This document shows, one piece after another, positions 33 to 5,345 of a stretch of 5,345 nucleotides of DNA. Position 1 is the first letter of the stretch. Each line of letters opens with the position of its first letter. Below the pieces are notes generated by a model that was not told where the DNA came from, did not search any database, and worked only from the letters and a program-made list of their open reading frames with translations. Source of the DNA: Naegleria gruberi (lineage: Eukaryota); assembly GCA_000004985.1 (NCBI GenBank), contig GG739164.1. One strand, 5' to 3'. The position numbers and the translations under genes were made by a program.

Positions 33-427
33 TTACCAACAACATCCACTACCTCCTTCACTTTCGTTTGGTTCACTAGTTGAAATATTTACATTATCAG
101 TTGGCTTATTTCTGACTGGTTCAGTACTTTCGAGAAGATTAGTTGTGTTGAGTATTTGATAGACAACTTCCTCAAATGCCTTATCAACATTTTCCTTTGT
201 TTTGGCTGATGTTTCAATATAGACCATATTATTGGATTTGGCAAAGTTTTGAGCGTCTTGGAGTGAAACTTTTCTTTCTTCCTTCAAATCAATCTTGTTT
301 CCAATCAATAATTTTACACATTCCTCAAATGTTGAATATAAATCACATTCCTTAAGCCAATTCTTAATATTATTAAATGTTTCCTCTCTAGTAACATCAT
401 AAACAAGAATTATTCCATGAGCATTTC
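33..427 (-). CDS. RAB18: Rab18-like exon 8 (terminal exon: (R)[92 protein letters not shown]...GGSGCCW, stop TAA at 33-35)
   Basis: The ORF track reports 33..308, but its initial 'M' is a TTG Leu codon. The reading frame stays open upstream to 427, where the acceptor TTTAG sits (plus 428-429). It contains the G4 NKxD motif (NKID), G5 ETSAK, the Rab YYR.A.G motif and a C-terminal di-cysteine prenylation motif. Confidence 0.9.
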
Positions 428-467
428 CTAAATATTTTGATTAAAATATAAATCTCAAAATACATAC

Positions 468-491
468 TATAATAACTTGATGTAAGAGTTC
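468..491 (-). CDS. RAB18: Rab18-like exon 7, 24-nt micro-exon ((R)TLTSSYY + first base of Arg)
   Basis: Reverse complement is GAACTCTTACATCAAGTTATTATA. The upstream intron carries TTCTAAC (branch-point-like) 12 nt before the acceptor AAG (plus 492-493). The donor is GTATGT (plus 462-467). The result is [17 protein letters not shown]. Confidence 0.8.
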
Positions 492-538
492 CTTAAATTT
501 TGTTAGAATTGATCAGTGAATTTTGGAAGCAAACTTAC

Positions 539-553
539 TAAATCTCTCTTGAC
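539..553 (-). CDS. RAB18: Rab18-like exon 6, 15-nt micro-exon ((G)QERF + first base of Arg)
   Basis: Reverse complement is GTCAAGAGAGATTTA. It is flanked by the acceptor AG (plus 554-555) and the donor GTAAGT (plus 533-538). It completes DTAG|QERF exactly. Confidence 0.8.
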
Positions 554-599
554 CTAATTCAATTCTTTAGAGAATTCTGTTTCTTATTTATACACTTAC

Positions 600-615
600 C
601 TGCAGTATCAAATAT
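600..615 (-). CDS. RAB18: Rab18-like exon 5, 16-nt micro-exon (IFDTA + first base of Gly)
   Basis: Reverse complement is ATATTTGATACTGCAG. It is preceded by AG (plus 616-617), with an in-frame TAA further upstream, and followed by the donor GTAAGT (plus 594-599). The split Gly codon G|GT is completed by exon 6, giving DTAGQERF. Confidence 0.8.
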
Positions 616-660
616 CTTTATCAATTATTTAGAAAAATTCAAATCTATTATTTTACCTAC

Positions 661-706
661 AGTCAATTTTACTTTCTTCCTATTTACATTCATAAATTTA
701 ACCTTG
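661..706 (-). CDS. RAB18: Rab18-like exon 4 ((F)[15 protein letters not shown])
   Basis: Reverse complement is C AAG GTT AAA TTT ATG AAT GTA AAT AGG AAG AAA GTA AAA TTG ACT. The acceptor AG is plus 707-708 and the donor is GTAGGT (plus 655-660 acctac). It supplies exactly 15 residues between TIGVDF and IFDTAG, matching the Rab spacing (K.K......K..KL.I.DTAG). Confidence 0.65.
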
Positions 707-770
707 CTATTTATAAAATCGTCATCATCATATTAAATCCAAATTCAATAATTATTCATTAAAAACATAC

Positions 771-841
771 AAATCCACACCAATTGTTGGCGACATTTGT
801 TCTTTAAACTCATCCTCAGTAAATTGTGTAATAATACTACT
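771..841 (-). CDS. RAB18: Rab18-like exon 3 ([23 protein letters not shown] + 2 nt of Phe codon)
   Basis: Reverse complement is AGTAGTATTATTACACAATTTACTGAGGATGAGTTTAAAGAACAAATGTCGCCAACAATTGGTGTGGATTT, followed by the donor GTATGT (plus 765-770 acatac). The switch-I TIGVD(F) motif is present, and the phase-2 end is completed to TTC by the first base of exon 4. Confidence 0.8.
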
Positions 842-884
842 CTATCGGAATTAATTATCTTCATCAATCTTTAAAAAAACAAAC

Positions 885-911
885 CTTTCCTGTGGCACTA
901 TCACCAACAAG
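885..911 (-). CDS. RAB18: Rab18-like exon 2, 27-nt micro-exon ([9 protein letters not shown]; P-loop first half)
   Basis: Reverse complement is CTTGTTGGTGATAGTGCCACAGGAAAG. The minus-strand acceptor AG is plus 912-913 (ct), and in-frame TAA TAG stops lie immediately upstream in that frame. The donor GTTTGT follows at plus 879-884 (acaaac). Joining to exon 3 gives GDSATGKSS, the G1/P-loop GxxxxGKS. Confidence 0.75.
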
Positions 912-950
912 CTATTAAATCCCGAACCGAACCAAACCAAAATAATCGAT

Positions 951-968
951 TCATCATCATCATCGTCG
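951..968. repeat. Trinucleotide microsatellite (TCA)4(TCG)2 inside Rab18 intron 1
   Basis: Direct reading: tcatcatcatcatcgtcg. Confidence 0.6.
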
Positions 969-1000
969 TTGCAAATACTCTAATAAATTGGAAAACTCAC

Positions 1001-1039
1001 CACAAGTTTGAAATTATGATCAAAAGCCTTTGAAGTCAT
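1001..1039 (-). CDS. RAB18: Rab18-like exon 1 ([13 protein letters not shown]), phase 0 end, donor GTGAGT on minus strand (plus 995-1000 actcac)
   Basis: Reverse complement of 1001-1039 is ATGACTTCAAAGGCTTTTGATCATAATTTCAAACTTGTG. An A-rich context precedes the ATG, with an in-frame stop 7 codons upstream. FKLV joins exon 2 LVGDS to give the Rab N-terminal FKLVLVGDS pattern. Confidence 0.75.
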
Positions 1040-1155
1040 TTTTTTATTTTTAGATTTCTATTAAGAAACACGTTTGCAGTTTTTATTTGAAAGTTCTTCC
1101 CAGTGTCCAAACAATCAATTGAATAATATTGAAAAGAAATTGAAGAATTGAATCG

Positions 1156-1188: not shown

Positions 1189-2259
1189 TCAATTCAAATT
1201 GCAACCAATTGCCTTGTTTGTTTGCACCTTAATTGAATGTAAAATTGGAGTTAATTTGGCAGTTAACTTGGATGGAACCTTTCCATTGGCCTTTTTTGAT
1301 TCATCCATCAATAATACCAAGTCAACTGGAATTGCAACTATTGGAATGGCACTTTTAATCATCAATCCTGTTAAACTCATAATACCTGTGTGGCCATTAG
1401 TCAATCCATCAGATTTATCCAAATCTTGATGCTTGTGGCCTGTCAGAGATTCAACAAATTGAAGAACGTTGACATTTCTATTACCAATTTTCATAACTCT
1501 ACTATCAATGTATGGATCAGTCAACCTTTGTTCATAAATCTTTCTAATCATTGCATTTACTGCTTGAGTATCCCTTTGTAAGAGTTCTTGAATGGACTTG
1601 GCTGATTTCTTGGCATGTTTCCATTCAGCAATTGATGCAGCAACTGTTGCTGTTGTTCCCACACCAACACAACCAATACCAGCACCTGAGGCAATTAATG
1701 AAACACCAAAAGTGAAAGGAGCAGCTACGATACCACCAAGAATCAAGGAAGCTCCAACAATATTGGTTTTTGTACCTTTCACTTTGGTCTTTGCTGTACT
1801 TTGTTGTTTCTTTTCTAATGATTGGATTAAATTGTCCAGCATTTTAATGATTTCCAATCGTTGGACAAGCCACTCATTTGCAGATTGTTCAATGACAGCA
1901 AATCCACAATTTGGATTATCAAAATTGGTACTTTCAAATGTTGGGGTTTGAGGAAGAATTACATTGGTCTGGAAATTTGTTTGTTGACCACCTTTTTCAT
2001 AGCTACTATTACTAGTTGTGGATTGAATTGGTTTAAAGTTGTTGGTTAGTTGTAATGGTTGGGGAGTTATTGGTTGTTGTACAAATTGAGGATTAGAAGT
2101 GATAACTGGAAAATATTGAGCGTTTGGTTGTGGATACATGTATTGAGGAGGATTAGGTGGGTAAAGTTGATATTCTGGTGGTTGATAATTCACTCCAGGT
2201 TCTGTAATGTTTGGTTGAGTAGAGAAATGTGGATATTGAGGAGAAACTTGTTGATGCAT
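1189..2259 (-). CDS. ApoL (apolipoprotein L)-like membrane protein, 356 aa, single exon. It has an N-terminal P/Q/Y-rich low-complexity region with PPxY motifs, a central ~45-residue Gly/Ala-rich hydrophobic hairpin, and a C-terminal amphipathic region
   Basis: The 1071-nt ORF is intact. The ATG at 2257-2259 is the first after an in-frame stop 10 codons upstream. The segments KVKGTKTNIVGASLILGGIVAAPFTFGVSLIASGAGIGCVGVGTTATVAASIAEWKHAKK and PVDLVLLMDESKKANGKVPS align, from memory, with human APOL1 [42 protein letters not shown]...TSSTMDYGKK and LDVVYLVYESKHLHEGAKSE. The N-terminus contains PPEY and PPQY. Confidence 0.8.
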   Translation of the reverse strand: MHQQVSPQYPHFSTQPNITEPGVNYQPPEYQLYPPNPPQYMYPQPNAQYFPVITSNPQFVQQPITPQPLQLTNNFKPIQSTTSNSSYEKGGQQTNFQTNVILPQTPTFESTNFDNPNCGFAVIEQSANEWLVQRLEIIKMLDNLIQSLEKKQQSTAKTKVKGTKTNIVGASLILGGIVAAPFTFGVSLIASGAGIGCVGVGTTATVAASIAEWKHAKKSAKSIQELLQRDTQAVNAMIRKIYEQRLTDPYIDSRVMKIGNRNVNVLQFVESLTGHKHQDLDKSDGLTNGHTGIMSLTGLMIKSAIPIVAIPVDLVLLMDESKKANGKVPSKLTAKLTPILHSIKVQTNKAIGCNLN

Positions 2260-2549
2260 TTTGTTTAAATTGTATTGAATAGAAAATAGATCATGAGTTT
2301 CTGATTTATTCTTTTCCTCAATTCCTTGTTTTGTTTCGAATTGAGGTACACCAATGTCAAATCTATAATTCGAAACCCGACTTCAATTTAGAAGGTTGAT
2401 TCTCGATTTCAAGGAGAAATAAATTTGAGCGCAAAACAACGACAGCCGATATCTCTTTCTAAAACTGCGAACTTCAAATTGTCCACATTTGACTTGCAAG
2501 AATCAATTATTGTTTCATCAACGTGCATGATCATTGCAATTCAGTTTTA

Positions 2550-2769
2550 TCACAAAATGTTAACAATTTCATATTCAATGCAATTATTTTCTTGTTTTAT
2601 TTTGTTCATTGTTGAACTAATTGATTTGATATTATGTACATTTGATTTTCTTTCTTTACTACCACTAATTATGTCAATAGTTTCAAATTCAGATAATAAA
2701 CCATGGTAGTTATTTATCTTATCAGTGATTGATTCTTGTTTGATGCATTCCACAGTGAATGTTGATTCG
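2550..2769 (-). CDS. Hypothetical ORF fragment (>=72 codons, ...ESTFTVECIKQESITDKINNYHGLLSEFETIDIISGSKERKSNVHNIKSISSTMNKIKQENNCIEYEIVNIL*) that runs out of the assembly gap. It may be the 3' end of a gene whose body lies in the gap
   Basis: The open frame continues from the stop at 2550-2552 up to the first N at 2770. The track 'M' at 2753 is a GTG. The product is hydrophilic. I recognise no domain. Confidence 0.2.
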
Positions 2770-3817: not shown

Positions 3818-3971
3818 ATCAGTTCAATCAAATTGAATATTGTAGATTTTCAAATCATAAACAGATGACAACTTTTGATTGAGCATTTTGATTCTGAAAT
3901 TAAATCACTTCTTTGTTGAAATTTCCAGCTTGTGATTTATTTTCCAATCTCCAATTTTTTTGAGTTTGACG

Positions 3972-4480
3972 ATGAAAAAAATACCTCAACAAGACCATCC
4001 TCCGGATACGGAAGGGAGTAATTTGCTTGCTGACAGGATTTTTGTGTTAGAGAGAGCAATTGAAACCTACCAAAAGGAAAACAATAATCTCCGTGACTAT
4101 CTTCAACAACTTGTAAATATATGTAATGGTCACCCGTTATTGAATAATAATAATAATAATCCCATCAAACCTGTAAATAATAATCTGATCAATACCCAAC
4201 CATCAGAAAATGAAAATCTATTTATTACTAGAAATCCAGTAAATGTTAGAAATCTACCAACTAGTAGAAATTTAATTAATGGTGGAAATTTCTTGACTGA
4301 GACAGTTCAAATATGCGATAGTAATCCTAAAAATAGAACTGTCAGTTATGCTGATATTACAAGATTAGCTCCTATTAAAGCTCAGCCATCTATTAAGAAA
4401 ACAATAGCAAAACAAAAATCAACAACTAATAAGATGAAAAGAAATATGGCAACTAATACTAGACCTAACAAACGTAAATC
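3972..4480 (+). CDS. 5' part of an N-rich uncharacterised protein gene (MKKIPQQDHPPDTEGSNLLADRIFVLERAIETYQKENNNLRDYLQQL...NNNNNN...KRKS), interrupted at 4480/4481 by a transposon. In the present sequence the frame reads 4 more codons into the element (RVY*) and stops at 4491-4493
   Basis: The first ATG is at 3972; the track start at 3960 is TTG, and an in-frame TGA lies at 3933-3935. There is a predicted coiled-coil-like N-terminus and a poly-Asn run. The frame continues after the element, see 4903..5293. Confidence 0.6.
4143..4160 (+). repeat. (AAT)6 microsatellite encoding poly-Asn within the CDS
   Basis: Direct reading: aataataataataataat. Confidence 0.9.
4473..4480. repeat. Target-site duplication, left copy (CGTAAATC)
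   Basis: An identical 8-mer sits immediately outside both terminal inverted repeats (4473-4480 and 4895-4902). Confidence 0.8.
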
Positions 4481-4500
4481 GAGAGTATATTAATATCCAA
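4481..4500. repeat. Left terminal inverted repeat of MITE
   Basis: gagagtatattaatatccaa, a perfect reverse complement of 4875-4894. Confidence 0.85.
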
Positions 4501-4874
4501 TATCTATCCCAAACCGCTTTTTTTGGATATGGCTTTTTAAAAAGGGCAATCTGGCTAAATTTTTACGGGCTTGGCTTTTTGGATAAATCTTGGATTGGAT
4601 AATATTATTTGAAAATGTGTCGTGTTTGAGCAATTGTCAACAAGGAATGCAGGCAAATCACTCTACGAATATTTATTAGATTATTATCAATACTAATTGC
4701 AATAAATCAACAATTTTTCGATATAAATTTGGAATAATTTATTTTTGAAATAATTCATTTTTTAGTGGAAATTTCTTGACTTATTTTTGGATTTAGGTTT
4801 TGGCTTTTTGGTTCAATTTGGCTTTTTGCCGATTTTTTATTCACCTATATCCAAAAACTGGTTTGGGATGGATT

Positions 4875-4894
4875 TTGGATATTAATATACTCTC
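4875..4894. repeat. Right terminal inverted repeat of MITE
   Basis: ttggatattaatatactctc. Confidence 0.85.
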
Positions 4895-4902
4895 CGTAAA
4901 TC
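4895..4902. repeat. Target-site duplication, right copy (CGTAAATC)
   Basis: Identical to 4473-4480. Confidence 0.8.
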
Positions 4903-5293
4903 TAATTACAATCTTAATCAAATAATTAATGTAATTTGCTACAAAGATGTTACTAACGAATTTGTTGAACAAATTACAGACCTACTCGGTGACTCTGTAA
5001 TCATTAGAGTTAATCGATACTGTAATAATATTATTAATGTAATTTGCCCTGATGAAACCAGTTATAAAGAGTGTTTCAATCAATTAGTGCAAGGAAGTCA
5101 TGGAGGAAAATTCATATTAGAATGCTTTCCATCTCCAGCAATCTTTAATCCTAAACCTTTAGCACTTTCACATACTACTTCCAGTAAAACTACTCACCTT
5201 AAAATGCTAGAAAACATTATTAGCAAATATATATTGGAAGATAATATTTCTGTTGAGGACTCTACACTAACTATTCTCATAACCAATTTATAA
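4903..5293 (+). CDS. 3' part of the same N-rich gene (NYNLNQIINVICYKDVTNEFVEQITDLLGDSVIIRVNRYCNNIINVICPDETSYKECFNQLVQGSHGGKFILECFPSPAIFNPKPLALSHTTSSKTTHLKMLENIISKYILEDNISVEDSTLTILITNL*). It is in frame with 3972..4480 once the element and one TSD copy (422 bp) are removed
   Basis: I translated 4901 onward by hand. There is no stop for 130 codons, up to TAA at 5291-5293. The frame (positions congruent to 2 mod 3) is exactly the one predicted from the upstream frame 0 plus a 422-bp insertion. The ORF track saw only its distal half, 5087..5293. Confidence 0.55.
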
Positions 5294-5345
5294 TTAGAAT
5301 ATCATTTGAGGATCAAACTATTTGCTCTCAAATGGCACAAAATCT

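What the first reader, a model, noticed from the sequence alone, without database searches (positions are those of the whole stretch)
3972..5293. Host ORF is restored exactly by virtual excision; the gene is either disrupted or the MITE has been intronized
Removing 4481-4902 (the element plus one TSD copy, 422 bp, which is 2 mod 3) joins frame 0 upstream to frame 2 downstream. The downstream frame is open for 130 further codons, to 5293. That is very unlikely by chance in AT-rich DNA, so the insertion post-dates a functional gene. Two outcomes are possible. The first is a truncated or pseudogenised allele, a 174-aa product ending ..KRKSRVY*. The second is splicing-out of the insert: a GTAAAT donor at 4474 and the first downstream AG at 4945-4946 would also preserve the frame (..NK|HVTNEFVEQ..). 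MITE exonization or intronization is a known but rarely documented route to new gene structures.
Basis: partly seen in the sequence, partly recalled or inferred. Interest (0 to 1): 0.6.

Follow-up and report, generated by a model that had tools for sequence, protein, structure and literature searches.

The report
Transposon insertion splitting a Naegleria ORF
A 414-bp inverted-repeat transposon has recently landed inside one copy of a Naegleria gruberi open reading frame, and an uninterrupted, nearly identical copy elsewhere in the same genome shows the junction predicted by removing it, so this is an ordinary disrupted copy and not a new intron.

Summary
The window is a whole 5345-bp Naegleria gruberi scaffold. 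A 414-bp element (4481-4894) has terminal inverted repeats, with the first 20 nt perfect, and a perfect 8-bp target-site duplication (CGTAAATC). It splits an ORF.

Removing 4481-4902 gives a protein whose first 289 residues match 287/289, without gaps, a 938-aa N. gruberi protein on a 502-kb scaffold (XP_002678260, NAEGRDRAFT_66315). That protein reads ...NKRKSNYNLNQ... across the junction, exactly as predicted. A 31%-identical paralog (XP_002669051) is also collinear across the site.

- **Counts corrected.** The restored ORF is 299 aa and the truncated product is 173 aa. The truncated product is the annotated protein XP_002668281.
- **Stop at 5293 is not ancestral.** The window lacks one base near 5259. 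Homology continues in another frame to the scaffold end.
- **Intronization is not supported.**
  - No GT..AG pair removes exactly the 422 bp.
  - The proposed donor lacks the +5 G seen in all seven introns of the neighbouring gene.
  - 21 of 102 nearby GT/AG pairs also keep the frame.
  - The proposed splice would delete the conserved first strand of an RRM-like domain.
- **The "host gene" may itself be a retroelement.** It may be the ORF1-like part of a non-LTR retroelement: the intact copy carries an RNase H domain and an RT-thumb-like stretch.

Interest is low.

The parts
3972..4480 (+). 5' part of the interrupted ORF (codons 1-169 plus 2 nt): a coiled-coil-like N-terminus, an Asn-rich linker and a basic stretch
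   Evidence: Identical to aa 1-170 of P0006. tblastn with paralog P0005 gives 3981-4451 against aa 1-165, E 2e-15. Annotated as XP_002668281.
4473..4480 (.). Target-site duplication, copy 1 (CGTAAATC)
4481..4894 (.). 414-bp non-coding TIR element (MITE-like), 28.7% GC
   Evidence: TIR arms are 4481-4549 and 4826-4894 (I1). The terminal 20-mer is perfect. There is no ORF longer than 48 aa and no protein match for the six-frame peptides. The element is absent from the otherwise identical copy P0006.
4491..4493 (+). Premature TAA supplied by the element. It ends the annotated 173-aa product (..KRKSRVY*).
4895..4902 (.). Target-site duplication, copy 2 (CGTAAATC)
4903..5259 (+). Continuation of the ORF (frame +2), encoding an RRM-like beta-alpha-beta-beta-alpha-beta domain
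5258..5260 (+). Site of a 1-nt deficit relative to the intact copy (GAGGA[N]CTC). It shifts the frame and creates the stop at 5291-5293.
   Evidence: P0006 reads ISVEELYTNYSH here. Adding one base at 5259/5260 gives 315/317 identity to P0006.
5260..5345 (+). Further continuation of the ORF in frame +1, running off the scaffold end
   Evidence: LYTNYSHNQFIIRISFEDQTICSQMAQN equals P0006 aa 290-317. tblastn with P0005 aa 295-316 gives E 3e-5.
4474..4946 (+). AG). It is not supported.

Best explanation
A 414-bp non-autonomous DNA transposon inserted very recently into one copy of a repeated Naegleria gruberi ORF.

The element has terminal inverted repeats, made an 8-bp target-site duplication and has no coding capacity. 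The insertion puts a TAA three codons into the element. This copy can therefore encode only a 173-aa N-terminal fragment: the coiled coil and the linker, without the RRM-like domain.

The pre-insertion state survives elsewhere in the same assembly as NAEGRDRAFT_66315. The interrupted copy is a dead or truncated copy, not a gene that splices the element out.

Sub-claim, inferred, about 0.65: the ORF is not an ordinary cellular gene. It is the ORF1-like module (coiled coil plus RRM-like domain) of a decayed non-LTR retroelement, which would make this a transposon nested in a retroelement copy.

Shown here: the TIRs, the TSD, the empty site at protein level, the premature stop and the absence of an exact splice. 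Inferred: that the insertion is recent, that no splicing occurs, and the retroelement nature of the ORF.
For: TIR and TSD anatomy, with the 20-mer beyond chance.

Empty site: restored aa 1-289 against P0006 gives 287/289 with no gap, reading NKRKSNYNLNQ. With one base restored at 5259/5260, 315/317 residues match, up to the scaffold end.

Paralog P0005 (31% identical) is collinear over aa 4-299, E 3e-38, with no gap at the junction. tblastn finds three collinear pieces in three frames.

Coding signature is present in both halves and absent from the element.

The annotation ends in the element.

Splicing is not favoured.

For the sub-claim:
- P0006 carries Pfam RNase_H above its gathering score (31.5-33.8 bits against 25.8).
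- The only PDB sequence hits to P0006 aa 290-938 are the R2Bm reverse transcriptase thumb region (..IRKAVGQWLRLPADVPKAYYHAAVQDGGLAIPSV).
- The gene to the left of the ORF in the window (P0007) has its identical twin on a 707-kb scaffold, while the intact ORF copy sits on a 502-kb scaffold.
- The paralog also exists as two near-identical copies on two large scaffolds.
- ORF1p of L1-type LINEs is a coiled-coil RNA-binding protein (abstract of PMC6428221).
Against: No second copy of the 414-bp element was found. There is none elsewhere in the window. The single metagenome match was a chance hit inside a coding region. No protein matched its six-frame peptides. The N. gruberi genome DNA could not be reached with these tools, so copy number and superfamily are untested.

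No transcript data were available, so the absence of splicing is inferred.

The empty site is known only at protein level.

For the sub-claim:
- Pfam detects no RT core and no endonuclease.
- The R2 match is weak (E 0.4).
- P0006 is a computed gene model and may fuse a cellular gene to a neighbouring LINE fragment.
- The two-locus argument fails if the small scaffold is mis-joined across its 1048-N gap.
- The model has mean pLDDT 62.5, from a 3-sequence alignment.
Confidence: 0.85

Rival explanations
1. The element has been intronized. Transcripts splice from the GTAAAT at 4474, which was created by the TSD, to the AG at 4946 or another downstream AG. This would give an in-frame, slightly shortened protein.
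For: The pair exists and keeps the frame. The mean N. gruberi intron length is 203 bp, so 473 nt is long but not excluded (PMC8296547, Table 2). The downstream frame is intact to 5259.
Against: - 21 of 102 nearby GT/AG pairs keep the frame.
- The donor has A at +5, against G in 7/7 local introns, which are 39-95 nt long.
- No exact 422-nt GT..AG intron exists.
- The splice deletes the conserved IINVIC strand.
- Nine competing AGs lie inside the element.
- The intact frame is explained by recency: 278/278 residues are identical to P0006 before the scaffold end.
- The annotation stops in the element.
Confidence: 0.04
2. The ORF is an ordinary lineage-specific cellular gene. The small scaffold is the second haplotype of the NAEGRDRAFT_66315 locus, carrying a heterozygous MITE insertion. 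The assembler split it off because of the 422-bp difference.
For: - The right-hand contig (3818-5345) extends only 663 and 451 bp beyond the element. That is what reads containing an allele-specific insert would give.
- It is about 100% identical to P0006.
- The assembly holds redundant small scaffolds (P0007 equals P0008).
- No Pfam RT hit.
- Only two annotated copies exist.
Against: - The scaffold links the ORF to a gene whose twin lies on a different large scaffold (707 kb against 502 kb).
- P0006 contains RNase H and an RT-thumb-like stretch.
- The paralog is also duplicated on two large scaffolds.
- No homolog was found outside N. gruberi.
Confidence: 0.3
3. The element was ancestral in the ORF, and the uninterrupted copy arose by precise excision.
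For: Presence or absence alone does not give the direction of change.
Against: - The divergent paralog (31% identical) also lacks any insertion and is collinear at the site.
- Cut-and-paste excision normally leaves footprints, not one clean TSD copy (general knowledge, not tested here).
- An ORF with a stop inside the element would not have kept its coding periodicity downstream.
Confidence: 0.02
4. The insert is an assembly or cloning artefact: a chimeric read joining unrelated DNA.
For: The scaffold is small, has low coverage and contains a gap. Both differences from P0006 lie in the last 120 nt, which suggests poor read ends.
Against: A chimera would not produce perfect 8-bp direct repeats flanking perfect 20-nt inverted termini and restore the frame exactly.
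Confidence: 0.02

Closest known systems
[quoted passage not shown]
   Same: It is small (414 bp), AT-rich and non-coding. It has terminal inverted repeats, a perfect target-site duplication, and a filled site with a matching empty site in near-identical copies.
   Different: High copy number, part of the usual definition, could not be tested. No related autonomous transposase is known. Subterminal TTGGCTTTTTG repeats are present (D1/D5), but their role is unknown.
hAT superfamily, and other superfamilies with 8-bp TSDs (P, Merlin, some Mutator-like elements)
   Same: An 8-bp TSD. The termini GAGAG fit 4 of the 5 positions of the hAT YARNG motif (motif recalled from memory).
   Different: The first base is G, not C or T. 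The TSD does not fit nTnnnnAn (also recalled from memory). There is no transposase to classify. The long, imperfect 69-nt arms and the GAGA start are equally reminiscent of Mutator-like elements. The element remains unassigned.
Introner elements: transposons that create spliceosomal introns (Micromonas, Aureococcus, fungi and others)
   Same: A short TIR/TSD element sits inside coding sequence, and the TSD happens to contain GT.
   Different: No GT..AG pair is positioned to remove the element plus one TSD exactly. There is no evidence of a family sitting in genes. The two library papers that mention both N. gruberi and introners are general studies of intron and splicing evolution and were not read.
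L1-type (type II) ORF1p of non-LTR retrotransposons
   Same: The interrupted ORF has an N-terminal coiled-coil-like segment, a basic linker and a non-canonical RRM-like domain. The intact copy continues into RT-thumb-like and RNase H sequence.
   Different: There is no sequence match to any solved ORF1p and no Pfam Transposase_22 hit. The RT core and endonuclease were not detected. Linkage of the ORF1-like and RT/RNase H parts rests on a computed gene model.

Membership tests
MITE / non-autonomous TIR transposon | Terminal inverted repeats at both ends | tested here: met
   20/20 at the termini, 35/40, and 69-nt arms at 75%. 0/200 shuffles gave two matches.
MITE / non-autonomous TIR transposon | Target-site duplication flanking the element | tested here: met
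   CGTAAATC at 4473-4480 and 4895-4902, 8/8.
MITE / non-autonomous TIR transposon | Small size and no coding capacity | tested here: met
   414 bp. The longest stop-free stretch is 48 aa. No codon-position GC pattern. No protein hit for the six-frame peptides.
MITE / non-autonomous TIR transposon | An empty site with a single copy of the target in a related sequence | tested here: met
   P0006 reads NKRKSNYNL, equal to AAC AAA CGT AAA TCT AAT, at protein level only.
MITE / non-autonomous TIR transposon | Many related copies in the same genome | not testable with these tools
   N. gruberi DNA is not in any searchable collection. No further copy in the window, in the metagenome scan or in proteins.
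hAT superfamily | 8-bp TSD | tested here: met
   Not specific to hAT.
hAT superfamily | Terminal YARNG motif, nTnnnnAn target, and relation to a hAT transposase | tested here: inconclusive
   GAGAG fits 4/5 positions. The TSD CGTAAATC does not fit nTnnnnAn. Both motifs were recalled from memory. The transposase relation is not testable.
Introner (intron-generating transposon) | Splice sites placed so that the element plus one TSD is removed exactly | tested here: not met
   All nine 422-nt registers were checked. None is GT..AG or AT..AC.
Introner (intron-generating transposon) | Transcript evidence of splicing | not testable with these tools
   No RNA data were available.
Non-LTR retrotransposon (applied to the interrupted ORF) | Reverse transcriptase domain | tested here: inconclusive
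   Pfam RVT_1 was not detected. The only PDB sequence hits are the R2Bm RT thumb, E 0.4. This lies outside the window, in P0006.
Non-LTR retrotransposon (applied to the interrupted ORF) | RNase H domain downstream of the RT (present in several clades) | tested here: met
   PF00075, 31.5-33.8 bits against a cut-off of 25.8, partial domain. In P0006, outside the window.
Non-LTR retrotransposon (applied to the interrupted ORF) | ORF1p with coiled coil plus RRM | tested here: inconclusive
Non-LTR retrotransposon (applied to the interrupted ORF) | Dispersed copies at different loci | tested here: inconclusive
   The neighbours point to two different large scaffolds, but the small scaffold could be mis-joined across its gap.

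The most novel reading that the evidence does not exclude
The insertion is a presence/absence polymorphism within strain NEG-M, between haplotypes or between recent copies. That would show a DNA transposon family still mobile in Naegleria gruberi. The resulting 173-aa fragment, with the coiled coil only, might be expressed and interfere in trans with the retroelement protein it derives from, as truncated L1 ORF1 proteins are reported to do (PMC5605252, title and abstract only). Alternatively, the TSD-borne GTAAAT might be used as a donor, so that the element is caught at the first step of intron birth.
Probability: 0.05. Interest if true: 0.55.

Novelty: new member of a known kind. Interest (0 to 1): 0.2.

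Why it matters
It gives a cleanly documented filled site and empty site for a TIR element with an 8-bp TSD in Naegleria gruberi, where most repeats remain unclassified (PMC12344493). That points to recent DNA-transposon activity.

It also flags three public gene models as probably not ordinary genes:
- XP_002668281 is a truncated fragment.
- XP_002678260 is a likely retroelement-derived chimera.
- XP_002669523 and XP_002669051 are the same sequence on two scaffolds with different models.

It does not bear on intron origin, because nothing supports splicing.

Tried and rejected
- **Related genomes.** No homolog of the restored protein was found outside N. gruberi. The word-index search gave only its own cluster. 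The full HMMER search with the C-terminal half gave one real hit, also from N. gruberi, plus two spurious hits to repetitive proteins, P0003 and P0004.
- **Hidden cluster member.** The intact copy was hidden inside the 90% cluster of P0001 and appeared only through the listing of cluster members.
- **Other copies of the element.** The window scan found none. The metagenome scan gave one chance 20-mer inside a coding region of an unrelated AT-rich contig. A concatenated six-frame peptide query gave nothing at E<=10.
- **DNA of the other N. gruberi loci.** Four encoding-contig look-ups all returned 'not on record'.
- **Pfam.** Nothing on the restored protein, on P0005 or on the C-terminal half.
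- **PDB sequence search with the ORF1-like module.** Nothing.
- **Literature.** No paper on Naegleria MITEs or introners was found. The genome paper itself is not held.
- **Intron length as an argument against splicing.** Kept only in weakened form. Local introns are 39-95 nt, but the genome mean is 203 bp.

Full report
**What the window is.** The only database protein matching the upstream ORF is a 173-aa 'predicted protein' of Naegleria gruberi, encoded on a contig of 5345 bp. It is XP_002668281 / NAEGRDRAFT_76809. The window is therefore a whole small scaffold of the N. gruberi assembly. It consists of two contigs (1-2769 and 3818-5345) joined across 1048 N. On the minus strand, the left contig carries a Rab-type GTPase gene with seven short introns and an ApoL-like 356-aa ORF.

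**Checking the observation.**
- The element is bounded by inverted repeats starting at 4481 and ending at 4894. The first 20 nt are perfect, 35 of the first 40 match, and the arms extend to 69 nt at 75%. The 20-mer occurs only at these two places, and 0 of 200 shuffles gave two matches.
- It is flanked by a perfect 8-bp direct repeat, CGTAAATC, at 4473-4480 and 4895-4902.
- Deleting 4481-4902 (422 bp) joins the frame of ATG 3972 to a frame with no stop until 5291-5293. The other two frames of the same stretch carry 21 and 10 stops.
- At the local stop frequency (0.075 per codon), 130 open codons have probability about 4e-5. Requiring the phase set by the TSD brings this to about 1e-5.
- Both halves show the same codon-position GC gradient, and the element does not.
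- The downstream frame has no Met until near its end, so it cannot be a separate gene.
- Small corrections apply. The restored ORF from ATG 3972 is 299 aa, and 303 only from TTG 3960. The truncated product is 173 aa.

The C-terminal half alone (4895-5290) found a real homolog in a full HMMER scan of 1.8 billion representatives. This is P0002, also from N. gruberi, E 4e-13. The two other hits are repetitive proteins and are spurious.

P0002 has a longer near-identical twin on another scaffold, P0005 (546 aa, XP_002669051). The restored protein aligns with P0005 collinearly from residue 4 to 299, at 31% identity and E 3e-38, with no gap at the insertion point.

The 90% cluster of the annotated 173-aa protein then turned out to hide a second member. 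This is P0006, 938 aa, XP_002678260 / NAEGRDRAFT_66315, on a 502,116-bp scaffold. Residues 1-289 of the restored protein match P0006 at 287/289 without gaps. P0006 reads ...RPNKRKSNYNLNQIINVICY... across the junction, exactly what virtual excision predicts. So the uninterrupted form exists in the same genome.

P0006 continues ...ISVEELYTNYSHNQFIIRISFEDQTICSQMAQN.... In the window this sequence is encoded in a third frame, from 5260 to the scaffold end. The window lacks one base at 5259/5260. With that base restored, 315 of 317 residues equal P0006. The two exceptions are Y279C (nt 5229) and the placeholder codon.

The stop at 5293 is therefore a consequence of a frameshift and not the natural end of the ORF, and the ORF runs off the scaffold. 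Both differences from P0006 lie in the last 120 nt of the scaffold. They may be read-end errors rather than mutations, and I cannot tell which. Apart from them, the interrupted copy is identical to the intact one over 278 residues. The insertion is therefore very recent, or the two are alleles. The intact downstream frame needs no selective explanation.

**Intronization.** The proposed GTAAAT (4474) and AG (4945-4946) exist and keep the frame. However:
- 21 of the 102 GT/AG pairs in the neighbourhood do the same.
- No register allows a GT..AG or AT..AC intron of exactly 422 nt.
- All seven introns of the Rab gene in this window have donors of the form GTNNGT and are 39-95 nt long, by my reading. 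The proposed donor has A at +5 and the intron would be 473 nt. The genome-wide mean intron length is 203 bp (PMC8296547), so length alone is a weak argument.
- Nine AGs lie inside the element.
- The splice would remove RKSNYNLNQIINVICYKD. This includes the IINVIC strand conserved in the paralog (LNIICY), which is beta-1 of the predicted domain.
- The public gene model ends in the element.

No transcript data were available, so splicing is rated unlikely but not excluded.

Beyond the part shared with P0005 (aa 1-~325), the intact copy P0006 has two retroelement-like features:
- It contains a Pfam RNase H domain above the gathering score.
- It contains a stretch whose only PDB sequence matches are the thumb region of the R2Bm reverse transcriptase, at a weak E of 0.4.

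By eye, a CCHC motif follows (CHDC..HYIHEC).

The ApoL-like gene next to the ORF in the window (P0007) has an identical twin, P0008, on a 707,703-bp scaffold. The intact ORF copy lies on a 502,116-bp scaffold. The paralog also occurs twice on large scaffolds.

Taken together, I think it more likely than not (about 0.65) that the 'host gene' is the ORF1-like module of a decayed non-LTR retroelement, and that this is a transposon nested in another repeat. The alternative is a lineage-specific cellular gene with a heterozygous insertion on a split-off haplotype contig. That reading fits the short reach of the right-hand contig on either side of the element, and it remains open (about 0.3).

**The element itself.** It is 414 bp, 28.7% GC and non-coding, with subterminal TTGGCTTTTTG-type repeats in both arms (D1 and D5). 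An 8-bp TSD is compatible with hAT, P, Merlin and some Mutator-like elements. The termini (GAGAG...) do not settle the superfamily, so I leave it unassigned. Copy number could not be tested, because the N. gruberi genome is in none of the searchable DNA collections. The window, the metagenome scan and the protein database yielded no second copy.

**Verdict.** The 'intronized' half is not. This is an ordinary, recent transposon insertion, probably into another repeat. It is useful mainly as evidence of recent DNA-transposon activity in Naegleria and as a correction to several gene models.

Noticed in passing
window 4282-4298 and 4765-4781 (30-nt context 4269-4298 vs 4752-4781): A 17-nt exact match, GTGGAAATTTCTTGACT, links the interrupted ORF (encoding ..GGNFLTE..) and the interior of the inserted element; the 30-nt context is 83% identical. 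0 of 300 Markov-shuffled elements reached 17 (maximum 16). It could be filler or captured DNA, or a chance tail.
   Followed up: partly
window 5229 and 5258-5260: The only two differences from the intact copy P0006 are an A/G substitution giving Y279C and a 1-nt deficit. Both fall within the last 120 nt of the scaffold, which suggests low-quality read ends, not real divergence.
   Followed up: partly
window 1189-2753, minus strand: The ApoL-like ORF (Pfam PF05461, E 6e-8; XP_002668283) is identical over 336 aa to a 488-aa model, XP_002681528, on a 707-kb scaffold. That model adds an upstream exon matching window ~2640-2700 (..EFETIDIIS..). The 356-aa model here is therefore probably N-terminally truncated by the N gap, and this contig is redundant with the main assembly. 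A further member at 90% or more comes from a 2424-bp ENA contig (P0009).
   Followed up: partly
window 33-1040, minus strand: A Rab-family GTPase gene has seven very short introns (about 39-95 nt), all with GTNNGT donors. My hand-spliced 210-aa product is not in the protein collection as an exact sequence, so the public model differs or is absent.
   Followed up: partly
P0002 / P0005 (other N. gruberi scaffolds): The same sequence, with 1 aa difference in 387, is annotated on two large scaffolds (182,562 and 99,287 bp) with different models (387 and 546 aa). The shorter model starts at an internal Met just before the RRM-like domain. This means either duplicated loci or repeats.
   Followed up: no
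window 4915-4939 and 5023-5047: A 25-nt direct repeat at 88% (..ATTAATGTAATTTGC) encodes IINVIC twice. The two copies correspond to strands beta-1 and beta-3 of the predicted RRM-like domain.
   Followed up: no
P0006 aa ~440-938 (outside the window): The gene model XP_002678260 appears to stitch together an ORF1-like module, a pre-RT region, an RT thumb, a shortened RNase H and a CCHC motif, without the RT core. This suggests a decayed or internally deleted LINE forced into a single gene model.
   Followed up: partly
L001 2667-2686 (metagenome contig JACCEE012387068.1): An exact 20-nt match to the TIR lies inside a coding region of an unrelated AT-rich contig. There is no similarity beyond the 20-21 nt, so it is a chance hit.
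   Followed up: yes
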